Assembly: GCA_039030515.1 (NCBI GenBank)
Contig: JBCCEA010000004.1
Location: 1-64,000, forward strand
Direction of reading: 5' to 3'
From: Myxococcota bacterium
Lineage (GTDB): Bacteria; Myxococcota_A; Polyangia; Polyangiales; Houyiibacteriaceae
Length of the DNA: 64,000 nt
Shown: in pieces, positions 21,401 to 24,400 of the stretch
How the letters are laid out: every line of letters begins with the position of its first letter
How positions within the stretch are numbered: the stretch's first letter is position 1
Position numbers: made by a program

Positions 21401-24400
21401 TTTTACCTTTTCGGCAGAGACCAGACTATCGAGAATCTCTTGTCGCATCCCTGGCAGTCCCTTATCGAAGTCGGTCCGGGAACCGGCCGTAACCTCAAAA
21501 AGCTGCATCAGGCGCGACCGTCAGCAGAATACGGAGGTATCGATGCCTGCGACTCGATGATCGCGCATGCATCACGGCGCCTGCCCTGGGCGAGGTTTCG
21601 TCATGGATTCGCCGAAGATGCTGACTTTGCGCTTTTCAGCCGACCCGCAGAGCGGATTTTATTCAGCTATTGCCTCTCGATGGTGCAGTCGCCCCGAGCC
21701 TCCCTCGAGCACGCGCTGCGCGAACTTGCGACCGGTGGTCGTTTGATCGTGGTCGACTTCGCTGATTTCGCCGACGCTCCGCCCAAACTAAAGCGGGTGT
21801 TTCATCAGCGGTGGCTGCAGCCTTTTCATGTCAAACCGCTAGAAGAATCCCTCTTCAGTGGACTTTCCGCACACGTCTCGTACGGGGCCTACCGCTACTT
21901 CCTGATCGCAGAGATCGAAAAACCCCACGGCAACTCCGCAGAGTCACGCGCCACCTAGACGCATCCACCGAGAGTTGAGACCGGCTACCTTGCGAGTCCC
22001 GAACCCAAACCAACTGTCATTCCTTTGGAATCGACTGCAGCTCGCGGCAATCGCGAGTCTCGTGTGCTCCACCGGATACGCACATCGCTGGATGGGAGAC
22101 GACGGGTTTATCAATTTGAGGGTTGCACAAAATCTGCTGGACGGGTTTGGCCCCGTCTTTAATCGAGCCGAGCGGGTGGAAGCTGTCACGAGCCCGCTCT
22201 GGGTCGCTCTGATTGCGGCGGTAGGCGTGTCGGGACTGCGTTTGGAATCGCTCGCCGTGGGCATGAGTCTACTTCTCTCCGTCTTGGGGGTCACTTTGGG
22301 TGCGCTCGGCGCCTATCAAGTCGCTCGCGAGCACGATCCGAACCGCAAGGAGCGCCCCGTACTGGCACTTGGCGTGCTGATTTACGCCCTCATTCCGGTG
22401 AGCTGGGACTATTGCACGTCAGGCCTTGAAAACGGGCTCTCGCTCGCGTGGATCGGTGCTGGCTACTACTGGATGGCCCGTGCCGGCAGAACCCCGCCTC
22501 CAGATATCTCGTCCCCTTGGCTTTTTCTGTATGTCGGTCTTGGACCCCTGATTCGGCCAGAGCTCACAATCCTCTCCTGCGCTTGGTCCTCCCTGCTTTT
22601 TCTTCGCATGCCGCAATGGAGAAGACGCGTTCTTTTGGCTATCCTTGTTCTTGCGCTTCCAGTGCTGTTTCAGCTAGCCCGAATGGCCTACTTTGGCTGT
22701 CTCATCCCGAACACGGGCATTGCAAAGGAAGCCTTCGACTCTCGATGGGTGCAAGGTCTTCGTTTCGCGCACAACTTCTACGGGCTCTACTGGCTTTACG
22801 CCTCGATCCCGCTTGCCTTGCTGCTCTCGCTCTCGGCCGCAGTCACCCGCCCACAGCGCGCACTACAGTGCTTTACCTTAGCATCGGCATGCATCTATCT
22901 CGTCTACGTGATTCGTGTTGGCGGAGGATTTATGCACGGACGGCTGCTTCTGCCCGCAACCTTCGCCCTACTTCTACCGGCCTCAAATATCCCTCTCGCC
23001 CCTTCTCTATATCTGCTGCGTCCACTTCGGCGCGCATCGGTGCTCGGAGCACTGCCTGCGTTTGCGATTTTGACCCTCAGTGTGTACACGGCGTCGACCA
23101 TTCGCGTGGCTCGAGAAAATGAGCACGGCATTGGAGATGAGCGGGGCTGGTACACCCGGATGGCGCAACATCCAAACCCGGTGCACGCCGAGGACTACGC
23201 CCGGTTTTCCTGGTATCAATCGGCCCTGAGAGACGCTCTGGAGATCGAAGGCGCCCTACCCGAGGCCAGCTTATGGCTACCCACAGGTCCGCGCACCGAA
23301 CTTGCGACGTGGGTTCAGAAAAGCGAGGTCCGAGGAGCCGTTGTTCGAACGGCCATCGGAATAGCCGGATTCGCCATGGGTCCTGAAATACACATCATCG
23401 ACCGGCTGGGTCTTTCCGACCCGGTGGGTTCACGCATTCGCATCGAGAAACGAAGTCGACCCGGACACGAAAAGCAGCTGTCGACGAACTGGATTCTCCA
23501 GCGATTCTCCGAACCGCACCGGAAGCGAAAAGAAACAACCGCAGCGCGGCACGAACTGGTGCAGCGAAAAGAAACACATCTACTCGAGTTGGAGTCTGAT
23601 TGTCGCTTGCTCTCAGAACTCAACGAGGCCACTCAGGCGCCGTTGTCTCTGGAATTGCTTGCACGAAATATCGGACGTGCGTTCCGGCTCACCCGACTTC
23701 GCTTGCCGCCAGACCCGAGTTTGATGCACTGCTCCTAAACGTGGCGGCGAGCGTCAGATGCTACGGGTGACGGCGTGTCTCGCCGGAACGTGCGGTCAGG
23801 CGACCGAACGGGAAACCAGCATGATCGCCAAGAAAAATCCGCCTAACTGGAGCGTCGCGCAGCTCGAATGGCCTCAGGCCACTTTTCATCGCAGCATGAT
23901 TTCACTATCCATGCATCAGGACTCACCCATGGGGAACAGCCGATGACGATCCAAGCAGAAACCGGTGTGGAGGGTTTTCTCGAGCGGGCACTGTTGTACG
24001 CTGGGCAAGTAGGGCCCGGCGTTGCACTGCCTAAAGAACGCCAGGGCTCGGGCATACTCGATACCCTTGCTGCCGCCTTTGAGCAGATTTCAGTTCGCGC
24101 CGAGAGGTTCCGAAGTCCCATCTTCGCTGCTGTATCGAGTCTTCGTTCGGGCGATCCGCTGATCACGGTAGACTCAGAAGGGTCCCTCCTACTCCTTTCA
24201 CAGCGCAGGGGACGATATATACGTGTGGAGGATGTCGAAGCCCGCGTCGAATGGATGGATACCGTCCAACTGCAGGCGCGACTCGGCGCACAAAGCACCA
24301 CCGAGGAATGGGCATGGCTCGGGCTCAAACCCTTCAATGAGGCCACGCTTCCTTCAAGCGCCAAGGTCAAACCTATTTTCAATGCGCTTCGATTGGTGCG

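What a model noticed while it worked through the whole genome (the two positions that open the first line are those of the whole stretch)
21990..23738. Mycobacterial-type decaprenyl-phospho-arabinose pathway with a full-length AftB-like arabinofuranosyltransferase
The genome has homologues of the three steps that make the lipid-linked D-arabinofuranose donor of the mycobacterial wall (g00686, C5:25192-26109; DprE1 g02117 and DprE2 g02116, adjacent, C21:44024-46191) and a GT-C protein (g00569) that aligns with M. tuberculosis AftB over nearly its whole length. I read this as D-arabinofuranosylation of an envelope glycan, lipid or pilin in a Gram-negative marine myxobacterium. D-Araf glycans count as a hallmark of Corynebacteriales; an AftB-type enzyme in Myxococcota would widen that chemistry and offer harmless relatives of two drug-target families for structural work.
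Evidence so far: Call 142: g00569 33% to M. tuberculosis AftB over 543 of 582 aa (E 2e-65), 31% to C. glutamicum AftB; g02117 35% to DprE1 over 454 of 467 aa (E 4e-70); g02116 30-31% to DprE2 over 243 of 246 aa; g00686 34% to the M. smegmatis phosphoribosyltransferase over 284 of 305 aa. Call 141: AftB_C in 1 of 87 family genomes, 23 of 592 in the order, 53 of 1654 in the phylum, 1.1% of Bacteria. Call 143: no paper with decaprenylphosphoryl + arabinofuranos* + DprE1 + Myxococc*.
(Added by a program. Inside this text positions count along the whole contig: contig position 1 is position 1 of the stretch shown here. "Call 12" and the like, gene names such as g00115 and contig names such as C1 are that model's own, and its searches are not shown. 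The text may have been shortened before it was handed on; [...] marks where a part breaks off. The agent that wrote the report below was given it as the finding of a first reader that could run no searches.)

Follow-up and report, generated by a model that had tools for sequence, protein, structure and literature searches.

The report
AftB-type sugar transferase in a myxobacterium

Summary
Window 21990-23738 (+) is an intact 582-aa membrane protein. It is homologous to AftB over its whole length (E 9e-62; model-to-structure TM 0.82). All six catalytic and donor-contacting residues of the solved AftB structure are kept. UbiA-type phosphoribosyltransferase, DprE1 and DprE2 homologues lie on contigs C5 and C21.

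The donor genes are not special to this genome. In a sample of 401 genomes of the phylum, DprE1-like genes occur in 227 and the UbiA-type gene in 357, including 23 of 23 family members. AftB-like genes occur in 21 and in no other family member. AftB-like genes do not track DprE1: 14 of 21 carriers have it, against 57% overall, and a complete Sorangium genome has AftB-like without DprE1. No gene neighbourhood is conserved, and no phosphatase or GtrA-type flippase was found. So D-arabinofuranose is likely here but not fixed, and the acceptor is unknown.

Lipid-linked pentofuranose addition in Gram-negative bacteria is already published (Kelly 2024; TfpW). AftB-family proteins of Myxococcota already carry automatic "arabinofuranosyltransferase" names. 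I file it as a new member of a known kind. What remains of interest: no retaining, beta-adding AftB-type enzyme has been characterised outside Mycobacteriales.

The parts
21990..23738 (+). AftB-family GT-C glycosyltransferase gene (582 aa; an alternative TTG start at 21975 gives 587 aa)
   Evidence: ORF; AftB 9dlf_C E 9.2e-62; NF041481 243.8 bits; model TM 0.82-0.83 to AftB
21990..23099 (+). Membrane GT-C core, about residues 1-370, holding the donor site
   Evidence: HMMER stretch 1, query 17-283, 147.9 bits; helices H6-31 to H346-370 in the model
22098..22103 (+). DD motif (D37-D38). D38 aligns with the catalytic nucleophile D62 of M. chubuense AftB
   Evidence: Hand mapping on the alignment; role of D62 from PMC12041299 (passages); D at position 38 in 67 of 68 family rows
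22188..22190 (+). T67, aligned with T91 of AftB (hydrogen bond to the donor phosphate)
   Evidence: T in 68 of 68 rows
22428..22430 (+). E147, aligned with E172 of AftB (contacts the C5 hydroxyl of arabinofuranose)
   Evidence: E in 67 of 68 rows
22554..22556 (+). R189, aligned with R221 of AftB (phosphate binding; R221A/E inactive)
   Evidence: R in 68 of 68 rows
22713..22715 (+). T242, aligned with T274 of AftB (contacts the 2-position of the donor sugar analogue)
   Evidence: T in 63 of 68 rows
22941..22943 (+). R318, aligned with R372 of AftB (phosphate binding; R372A/E inactive)
   Evidence: R in 68 of 68 rows
23103..23738 (+). Periplasmic cap domain, about residues 372-582, the presumed acceptor side. 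It is less conserved than the core but keeps the GDERGWY and RPGHEK motifs
   Evidence: HMMER stretch 2, query 289-574, 68.5 bits; invariant D383, E384, D471, R488, R490, G492, H493, E494 in A1; mixed alpha/beta region in the model

Best explanation
The ORF encodes an intact, probably active member of the AftB family of GT-C membrane glycosyltransferases. It most likely binds a polyprenyl-phosphate-linked pentofuranose at the periplasmic face of the inner membrane. In this genome that sugar is most likely beta-D-arabinofuranose. The donor would be made from PRPP by the UbiA-type phosphoribosyltransferase on contig C5 and epimerised at C2 by the DprE1/DprE2 homologues on C21. The enzyme would transfer the sugar through the conserved DD-motif aspartate, probably with retention, giving a beta linkage. 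The acceptor would be an as yet unknown envelope glycan.

Shown: the homology, the fold, conservation of all six donor and catalytic residues, and the presence of the three donor genes. Inferred: the identity of the sugar, the stereochemistry, the activity and the glycan nature of the acceptor.

The gene is an accessory gene of this lineage, absent from the sampled relatives. It sits in a native contig and would draw on a donor pathway that is common in the phylum and serves other, unidentified transferases.
For: Whole-length homology to AftB alone among PDB chains (E 9.2e-62). Model TM 0.82-0.83 to AftB, next chain 0.43 or less. D38, T67, E147, R189, T242 and R318 align with D62, T91, E172, R221, T274 and R372 of M. 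chubuense AftB, whose roles and dead mutants are given in PMC12041299 (passages). These positions are kept in 63-68 of 68 family rows. Specific DprE1, DprE2 and UbiA homologues are present, one each. All 11 of 11 non-mycobacterial Actinomycetota genomes with AftB-like have DprE1 over the curated cut-off. Kelly et al. 2024 (Discussion read) show that polyprenyl-P-pentofuranose plus a GT-C is a common periplasmic glycan-modifying route in Gram-negatives, with DprE1/E2 where the sugar is Araf, and they name AftB as the precedent for beta addition. 2 of the 120 listed homologues (P0046, P0094) carry a jacalin-type lectin domain, which hints at glycan acceptors. The contig is native: argH, 6 kb upstream, is 60-73% identical in 19 of 20 relatives, and the G+C matches the genome.
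Against: The genes lie on three contigs, and none of 8 non-mycobacterial loci shows a conserved neighbourhood. All four proteins score under NCBI's equivalog cut-offs. AftB-like does not co-occur with DprE1 beyond background in the phylum: 14 of 21 against 227 of 401. 7 of those 21 genomes and 7 of the 10 non-Actinomycetota genomes lack DprE1 (two genomes appear in both sets; one of the 7 is the MAG whose AftB contig is mis-binned); they include a complete Sorangium genome and genomes 98-99% complete. No PAP2 phosphatase and no GtrA-family flippase were found in this genome, which is 85% complete. No Emb-type arabinan polymerase was found, so AftB's natural acceptor is missing. The query sits on a long branch (1.32 against a median of 0.6) and its best relative is only 41-42% identical. 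There are no expression data.
Confidence: 0.6

Rival explanations
1. Same enzyme class, but the sugar transferred is ribofuranose or another pentofuranose such as xylofuranose, taken from polyprenyl-P-ribose without the DprE1/E2 step. The DprE1/E2 pair would serve a different transferase.
For: AftB-like genes of the same clade occur in genomes with the UbiA-type synthase but no DprE1 at E 1e-30 or 1e-50: G110, G256, G250, G039, G285, Sorangium G410 and Chloroflexota G414/G415. The UbiA-type gene is in all 41 of 41 carriers (38 distinct genomes). The GT-C of Citrobacter accepts both Ribf and Xylf donors (PMC11127046, Discussion). DprE1-like is in 23 of 23 family members without AftB-like.
Against: This genome does hold DprE1/E2, so its pool of polyprenyl-P-ribose would be epimerised. 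The residues that contact C5-OH and the 2-position of the arabinose analogue (E147, T242) are kept. The UbiA-type gene is so common (357 of 401) that its presence in every carrier says little.
Confidence: 0.2
2. The acceptor is a protein, such as a pilin or a substrate of the neighbouring type I secretion genes, or a lipid, rather than a polysaccharide.
For: TfpW shows that a GT-C can put D-Araf on pilin (preprint, passages). The gene lies between a betaine-lipid-synthase-like pair (20111-21958) and ABC/HlyD/TolC genes (23868-28809) on the same strand, with no convincing terminator between them.
Against: No pilin family appears among the 12 neighbouring ORFs between 12.2 and 34.1 kb that were scanned. 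None of these neighbours is found beside AftB-like genes in 80 other loci. The whole protein, periplasmic domain included, models as AftB and not as a TPR-bearing TfpW. The DUF3419 gene is itself unique in the family (0 of 40), so the adjacency looks idiosyncratic.
Confidence: 0.1
3. The protein uses an unrelated lipid-linked sugar (a hexose or an amino sugar), or it is a decaying, inactive copy.
For: Identity to AftB is only 30-33%. The score is a quarter of the equivalog cut-off. The branch is long. GT-C families often change sugar.
Against: The frame is intact. All six functional positions and the periplasmic motifs are kept. The model is confident. Conservation of the sugar-contacting residues across 68 rows from four phyla argues for one donor class.
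Confidence: 0.08

Closest known systems
AftB, terminal beta-(1->2)-arabinofuranosyltransferase of Mycobacteriales (M. chubuense structure 9dlf/9dlh; M. tuberculosis Rv3805c)
   Same: Whole-length homology, the same GT-C fold with periplasmic cap (TM 0.82-0.83), the DD-motif nucleophile, both phosphate-binding arginines and the three sugar or phosphate contacts.
   Different: About 30-33% identity, and 243.8 bits against the 1050-bit equivalog cut-off. It falls in a separate, well-supported Myxococcota-type clade (99% SH-aLRT). It is not next to the UbiA-type gene, as AftB is in mycobacteria (47 loci with adjacency). No Emb-type enzymes were found, so there is no arabinan acceptor. The host is Gram-negative.
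Three-component pentofuranose side-chain systems of Gram-negative bacteria (Citrobacter youngae O1/O2: polyprenyl-phosphoribose synthase, MATE flippase, GT136 GT-C; Kelly et al. 2024, PMC11127046)
   Same: A UbiA-type synthase makes a lipid-linked ribofuranose from PRPP, optional epimerases (DprE1/E2 for Araf) change the sugar, and a GT-C adds it in the periplasm.
   Different: Those systems are clustered in one locus, the synthase carries a fused phosphatase domain, and the GT-C is GT136 and inverting (alpha linkages). Here the genes are scattered over three contigs, the synthase is unfused (309 aa), no flippase or phosphatase was identified, and the GT-C is AftB-type, the retaining precedent named in that paper.
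TfpW, pilin D-arabinofuranosyltransferase of Pseudomonas aeruginosa group IV strains
   Same: A GT-C with a DDx motif in a Gram-negative bacterium, dependent on homologues of Rv3806c, DprE1 and DprE2 (preprint 10.1101/2020.04.19.049825, passages).
   Different: TfpW is encoded next to pilA, has a C-terminal TPR domain and makes alpha-1,5 oligomers. The window protein has no pilin neighbour and an AftB-type periplasmic domain.

Membership tests
AftB family (NCBIfam NF041481; Pfam PF26371 as a precomputed label; CAZy GT89 by recall) | Homology to AftB over the membrane core and the periplasmic domain | tested here: met
   Query 17-574 aligned to chain 41-639, E 9.2e-62; NF041481 positions 9-293 and 312-615 matched
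AftB family (NCBIfam NF041481; Pfam PF26371 as a precomputed label; CAZy GT89 by recall) | Score over NCBI's equivalog cut-off, meaning the same function as mycobacterial AftB | tested here: not met
   243.8 bits against 1050. None of the 21 matches in the phylum reaches the cut-off
AftB family (NCBIfam NF041481; Pfam PF26371 as a precomputed label; CAZy GT89 by recall) | GT-C_A fold with about eleven membrane helices and a periplasmic cap | tested here: met
   Model pLDDT 85.7; TM 0.82/0.83 to 9dlf_C/9dlh; other GT-C chains 0.43 or less
AftB family (NCBIfam NF041481; Pfam PF26371 as a precomputed label; CAZy GT89 by recall) | Catalytic aspartate of the DD motif (D62) | tested here: met
   D37-D38; D in 67 of 68 rows
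AftB family (NCBIfam NF041481; Pfam PF26371 as a precomputed label; CAZy GT89 by recall) | Arginine pair that holds the donor phosphate (R221, R372) | tested here: met
   R189 and R318; R in 68 of 68 rows each
AftB family (NCBIfam NF041481; Pfam PF26371 as a precomputed label; CAZy GT89 by recall) | Contacts to the arabinofuranose and phosphate (T91, E172, T274) | tested here: met
   T67, E147 and T242; conserved in 68, 67 and 63 of 68 rows
AftB family (NCBIfam NF041481; Pfam PF26371 as a precomputed label; CAZy GT89 by recall) | Beta-(1->2) transfer of D-Araf from decaprenyl-P-arabinose onto arabinan termini | not testable with these tools
   Needs an enzyme assay or glycan analysis. An arabinan acceptor is unlikely, since no Emb-type gene was found (PF04602)
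Lipid-linked D-arabinofuranose donor pathway (UbiA-type synthase, phosphatase, DprE1, DprE2, flippase) | Polyprenyl-phosphate phosphoribosyltransferase | tested here: met
   C5:25192-26121(-): NF008977 230.4 bits (cut-off 234); 116 bits to Rv3806c 8j8j, with the NDxxDxxxD motif aligned
Lipid-linked D-arabinofuranose donor pathway (UbiA-type synthase, phosphatase, DprE1, DprE2, flippase) | DprE1 oxidase and an adjacent DprE2 reductase | tested here: inconclusive
   The DprE1-like gene is specific (366 bits; 243 bits to M. tuberculosis DprE1, next family 35 bits) but under the 500-bit cut-off. The DprE2-like SDR scores 151.6 against 250 and fits the generic SDR model PRK07102 better. The two genes overlap on C21
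Lipid-linked D-arabinofuranose donor pathway (UbiA-type synthase, phosphatase, DprE1, DprE2, flippase) | 5-phosphate phosphatase (Rv3807c type, PAP2 family by recall; or a fused HAD domain as in Citrobacter) | tested here: inconclusive
   No PAP2 match at E 0.001 in a genome that is 85% complete. The synthase is unfused at 309 aa. HAD-type phosphatases were not searched
Lipid-linked D-arabinofuranose donor pathway (UbiA-type synthase, phosphatase, DprE1, DprE2, flippase) | Flippase (GtrA/SMR type as Rv3789, or MATE) | tested here: inconclusive
   No GtrA-family match (PF04138). The small EamA-type protein next to UbiA in G012 has no homologue in G000 by tblastn at 1e-5. MATE proteins were not searched
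Three-component pentofuranose system (Kelly et al. 2024) | Synthase, flippase and GT-C encoded together in one glycan locus | tested here: not met
   The genes lie on contigs C4, C5 and C21. No glycosyltransferase is next to the donor genes, and no donor gene is within 10 kb of AftB-like in the Myxococcota-type loci
TfpW-type pilin arabinosyltransferase | Gene adjacent to pilA; C-terminal TPR domain | tested here: not met
   No pilin or TPR family in the gene or in the 12 neighbouring ORFs scanned. The periplasmic domain models as AftB

The most novel reading that the evidence does not exclude
AftB-type enzymes of Myxococcota are retaining beta-pentofuranosyltransferases that cap a Gram-negative envelope glycan with beta-D-arabinofuranose. 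That would be the first such linkage outside Actinomycetota. Behind it, the near-universal UbiA-type synthase (357 of 401) and the common DprE1/E2 pair (227 of 401) would mean that lipid-linked pentofuranose glycosylation is an unrecognised, phylum-wide feature of myxobacterial envelopes, whose main transferases are still unidentified.
Probability: 0.35. Interest if true: 0.65.

Novelty: new member of a known kind. Interest (0 to 1): 0.4.

Why it matters
If active as proposed, this clade would be the first AftB-type (retaining, beta-adding) pentofuranosyltransferase characterised outside Mycobacteriales. Kelly et al. 2024 point out that AftB is the only precedent and that no other beta-linked Araf or Xylf side chain is known. 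Cultured carriers of the same clade (Persicimonas, Lujinxingia, Sorangium) are harmless, so the chemistry is directly testable, and they offer soluble-in-detergent relatives for structural work on the family. The wider point came out of the controls. DprE1-like and UbiA-type genes are common across Myxococcota, so arabinofuranose or related sugars may be ordinary envelope components there. As it stands this is an annotation-level inference about one accessory gene in a metagenome-assembled genome.

Tried and rejected
1. Local Pfam scan of the ORF gave no family, and the same for the 8 AftB-like ORFs of other genomes. I read this as a missing model, not as evidence.

2. Guilt by association. 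tblastn of 9 window neighbours and the 3 donor proteins against 80 related loci found no window neighbour conserved. UbiA is adjacent in 47 loci, the 40 listed being mycobacterial-type (Mycobacterium and kin, one Corynebacterium, unclassified Actinomycetota MAGs). DprE1/E2 lie within 10 kb only in three Amycolatopsis loci. Pfam of 60 flanking ORFs in 8 non-mycobacterial loci showed nothing recurrent.

3. Co-occurrence as support for the arabinose donor gave no enrichment. UbiA in 41 of 41 carriers is uninformative against a background of 357 of 401.

4. Looking for the usual consumer of the donor. No glycosyltransferase lies beside the donor genes in G000. In the G012 cluster the 507-aa candidate has one hydrophobic stretch, so it is not a GT-C. 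The G240 locus gave nothing.

5. Island boundaries. Synteny with two relatives holds from 5.3 to 17.2 kb and is lost from 17.3 kb on. The far boundary was not found within the 100 kb fetched.

6. Expression: no RNA holder listed; read laying was not used.

7. The scan of 19-30 kb found no sigma-70-type promoter-like site on the + strand (one on the - strand) and only weak hairpins, fewer than in shuffles. Operon structure stays open.

8. Earlier findings of this scan: three look-ups, nothing.

9. Literature. PMC9535733 mentions arabinose only as a synthetic precursor. My recollection that old compositional analyses reported arabinose in Myxococcus xanthus LPS could not be checked and is not used.

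10. Not in print, as far as searched. (arabinofuranose / Myxococc* / DprE1, at least 2 of 3 terms: 85 papers, of which the 15 listed all have 0 occurrences of Myxococc*). (11 papers, none on Myxococcota by title). 'Myxococc' occurs 0 times in the main text of Kelly 2024 and of the TfpW preprint. The supplements of Kelly 2024 (SI Figs S11, S12, lists of candidate systems) were not seen and could include such taxa.
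Full report
**The thing itself.** An open frame runs from 21975 to 23738 on the + strand. Possible TTG starts lie at 21975 and 21990, and the next starts are GTG 22062 and ATG 22092. From 21990 it gives 582 residues.

- Against every chain of the Protein Data Bank it matches a single family, the arabinosyltransferase AftB of Mycobacterium chubuense (9dlf_C). 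The E-value is 9.2e-62, in two stretches that cover query 17-283 and 289-574.
- NCBIfam's AftB model NF041481 matches at 243.8 bits (E 2.6e-72). That is far below its equivalog cut-off of 1050.
- I built an AlphaFold2 model on an alignment of 23 family members (A1). It is confident (mean pLDDT 85.7, pTM 0.89).
- The model superposes on both AftB entries at query-normalised TM 0.82-0.83. The best other chains (oligosaccharyltransferases, ArnT, AftD, Emb) stay at 0.43 or below.
- The local Pfam copy returned nothing for this ORF or for the AftB-like ORFs of eight other genomes. The family label PF26371 is seen only as a precomputed tag on the homologues. The blank is therefore a library gap.

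**Active site.** I read passages of the AftB structure paper (PMC12041299). It names these residues:

- D62 of a DD motif as the catalytic nucleophile (D62A is dead);
- R221 and R372 as the phosphate clamps (Ala and Glu mutants are dead);
- T91 as a further phosphate contact;
- E172 as the contact to the C5 hydroxyl;
- T274 as the contact to the 2-position of the bound donor analogue.

Counting along the printed HMMER alignment, these fall on query D38, T67, E147, R189, T242 and R318. All six are kept. In a MAFFT alignment of 68 family members from Mycobacteriales, other Actinomycetota, Chloroflexota and Myxococcota, the same columns are conserved in 67, 68, 67, 68, 63 and 68 rows. The periplasmic domain also keeps family-wide motifs: D383-E384, D471 and R488/R490-G492-H493-E494. 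The protein therefore looks like a working enzyme that binds a polyprenyl-phosphate-linked furanose in the AftB manner.

**The donor genes.** The genome is 4.08 Mb in 75 contigs, 85% complete with 0.11% contamination. It holds one copy of each donor gene.

- UbiA-type phosphoribosyltransferase, C5:25192-26121(-). It scores 230.4 bits on NF008977 (cut-off 234) and 116 bits to Rv3806c.
- DprE1-like flavoenzyme on C21. It scores 366 bits on NF053785 (cut-off 500) and 243 bits to M. tuberculosis DprE1. The next PDB family scores 35 bits.
- An overlapping DprE2-like short-chain reductase. It scores 151.6 bits on NF053786 (cut-off 250) and fits a generic SDR model better.

No PAP2-type phosphatase and no GtrA-family flippase were found. 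HAD-type phosphatases and MATE flippases were not searched. No glycosyltransferase lies beside the donor genes.

**How special is this?** I searched an even sample of 401 genomes of the phylum, G000 included.

| Gene | Threshold | Phylum sample | Other family members |
|---|---|---|---|
| AftB-like | E 1e-20 | 21 of 401 | 0 of 23 |
| DprE1-like | E 1e-50 | 227 of 401 | 23 of 23 |
| UbiA-type synthase | E 1e-35 | 357 of 401 | 23 of 23 |

At the DprE1 threshold, only Corynebacterium rings among the 14 control genomes. The donor pathway is thus a common, vertically held trait of the phylum. The AftB-like gene is a rare accessory.

Of the 21 AftB-like carriers, 14 have DprE1-like. The 7 that lack it are G053, G110, G285, G250, G039, G256 and G336. 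That is 67% against 57% overall, so there is no real enrichment.

I also searched 21 further carriers reached through related loci.
- All 11 non-mycobacterial Actinomycetota have DprE1 over the curated cut-off.
- Only 3 of the 10 others have a match at E 1e-30.
- The 7 without one include a complete 14.9-Mb Sorangium genome, two Chloroflexota and UBA9088.
- Three of these handles are the same genomes as three in the phylum sample, as identical match coordinates show.

So outside Actinomycetota the family is not bound to the arabinose epimerase. In DprE1-less hosts the donor may be polyprenyl-P-ribofuranose. Kelly et al. 2024 (Discussion read in full) showed that the Citrobacter GT-C accepts either ribo- or xylofuranose, whichever the cell makes. 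In G000 the epimerase pair is present, which is why I rank arabinofuranose first.

**Family tree and origin.** The tree has 68 rows (IQ-TREE quick search, SH-aLRT support only). I kept 10 of the mycobacterial loci, dropped one row for length or X, and added 21 database proteins.

- Classical AftB sits with Pseudonocardiales, Streptosporangiales and Geodermatophilales in one half.
- Acidimicrobiia and a clade of Chloroflexota plus Myxococcota (96) sit in the other half.
- The query lies inside a 27-row Myxococcota-type clade (99), next to an unnamed metagenome protein (95). It has a long end branch (1.32 against a median of 0.6).
- Its best relative anywhere is 41-42% identical.

The contig is native. 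argH, 6 kb upstream, is 60-73% identical in 19 of 20 relatives, and the G+C matches the genome. Gene order matches two relatives from 5.3 to 17.2 kb and is lost from 17.3 kb on. The gene therefore sits in a variable stretch.

**Neighbourhood and acceptor.**

- Upstream on the same strand are a DUF3419 protein and a small methyltransferase (20111-21958). DUF3419 is the betaine-lipid-synthase family, per a passage of PMC10685587.
- Downstream are ABC, HlyD and TolC-type genes of type I secretion kind.
- None of these neighbours lies beside AftB-like genes in 80 other loci.
- The DUF3419 gene is itself absent from 40 of 40 other family genomes.
- The flanks of eight non-mycobacterial AftB-like genes share nothing.

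The acceptor cannot be read from context. Three things favour a glycan acceptor. The periplasmic domain is AftB-type. Lectin domains occur on two homologues. Published pentofuranose systems decorate polysaccharides.

AftB's own acceptor, arabinan, is unlikely. No Emb-type gene was found. The other GT-C proteins of the genome are five PMT_2-type matches over the cut-off, of unknown sugar.

**What is known.**

- D-Araf on Pseudomonas pilin depends on homologues of Rv3806c, DprE1 and DprE2 and on the GT-C TfpW (preprint, passages).
- Kelly et al. [quoted passage not shown]
- They note that AftB is the only precedent for beta addition, and that no other beta-linked Araf or Xylf side chain is known.
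- Public databases already name the Myxococcota proteins "arabinofuranosyltransferase" or "terminal beta-(1->2)-arabinofuranosyltransferase" by automatic transfer.
- I found no paper on such enzymes or on DprE1 in Myxococcota. This rests on searches, where I saw only the listed top hits, and on zero occurrences of 'Myxococc' in the two key papers. The supplements of Kelly 2024 were not seen.

**Verdict.** It is wrong to treat the donor pathway as a peculiarity linked to this gene, and wrong to treat such chemistry as confined to Corynebacteriales. I file it as a new, divergent member of the AftB family acting within the known scheme of periplasmic pentofuranose addition. The unusual and still untested feature is a retaining AftB-type transferase in a Gram-negative host.

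Noticed in passing
window 20111-21958 (+): A DUF3419 protein (396 aa, PF11899, E 1.5e-61) is followed 3 bases later by a 217-aa SAM methyltransferase. The pair looks like the BtaA/BtaB route to the phosphorus-free betaine lipid DGTS; DUF3419 is linked to betaine lipid synthase in PMC10685587, and the BtaA/BtaB naming is by recall. The DUF3419 gene was found in 0 of 40 other genomes of the family.
   Followed up: partly
window 21975-22094: The identical protein on record (P0002) is 548 aa, which fits a gene call from ATG 22092. That start would remove the first membrane helix. The AftB alignment begins at residue 17 of the 582-aa form, and the model has a confident helix at 6-31. A TTG start at 21975 or 21990 is more likely.
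   Followed up: partly
G000 C21:44024-46191 and C5:25192-26121; phylum sample: DprE1-like genes are in 227 of 401 and UbiA-type polyprenyl-phosphate phosphoribosyltransferases in 357 of 401 sampled genomes of the phylum. The DprE1-like matches fall into two score classes, about 400-510 bits over the whole model and about 340-385 bits starting near model position 24-40. The transferases that use this donor are unidentified.
   Followed up: partly
L097 (G012:C1:2232000-2251999), about 7100-14974: In another genome of the phylum the donor genes are clustered on one strand: UbiA-type synthase, a 122-aa four-helix EamA-like protein (a flippase candidate), an SDR, a GNAT, a 507-aa lipoprotein-like ORF, DprE1-like and DprE2-like. 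No GT-C lies in the cluster.
   Followed up: partly
L033 (contig of a MAG titled Gammaproteobacteria): Its AftB gene nests inside Mycobacterium with a branch of 0.06, and a UbiA-type gene is adjacent on the same 3.9-kb contig. The contig looks mis-binned, so it is no evidence for AftB in Gammaproteobacteria.
   Followed up: partly
L014 4997-9531: In a DprE1-less carrier (G110, 99% complete) the AftB-like gene is preceded by a GMC-family flavin oxidoreductase, with a PRPP-synthetase-like gene about 4 kb upstream. This may be an alternative route to the donor. It was not tested.
   Followed up: no
homologues P0005, P0010, P0019, P0020 and others; L008, L010, L014: Many proteins of the Myxococcota-type clade are 750-830 aa, with a C-terminal extension of about 170-250 aa that has no Pfam match. 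Two (P0046, P0094) carry a jacalin lectin domain. The window protein lacks the extension.
   Followed up: no
window 17363-19198 (+) and 17.3 kb onward: A 611-aa PA14/fibro-slime-domain protein begins the stretch where gene order with two relatives is lost, right after argH-lysA. ORFs 29646-31451 and 31549-34116 have no family in Pfam or NCBIfam.
   Followed up: no
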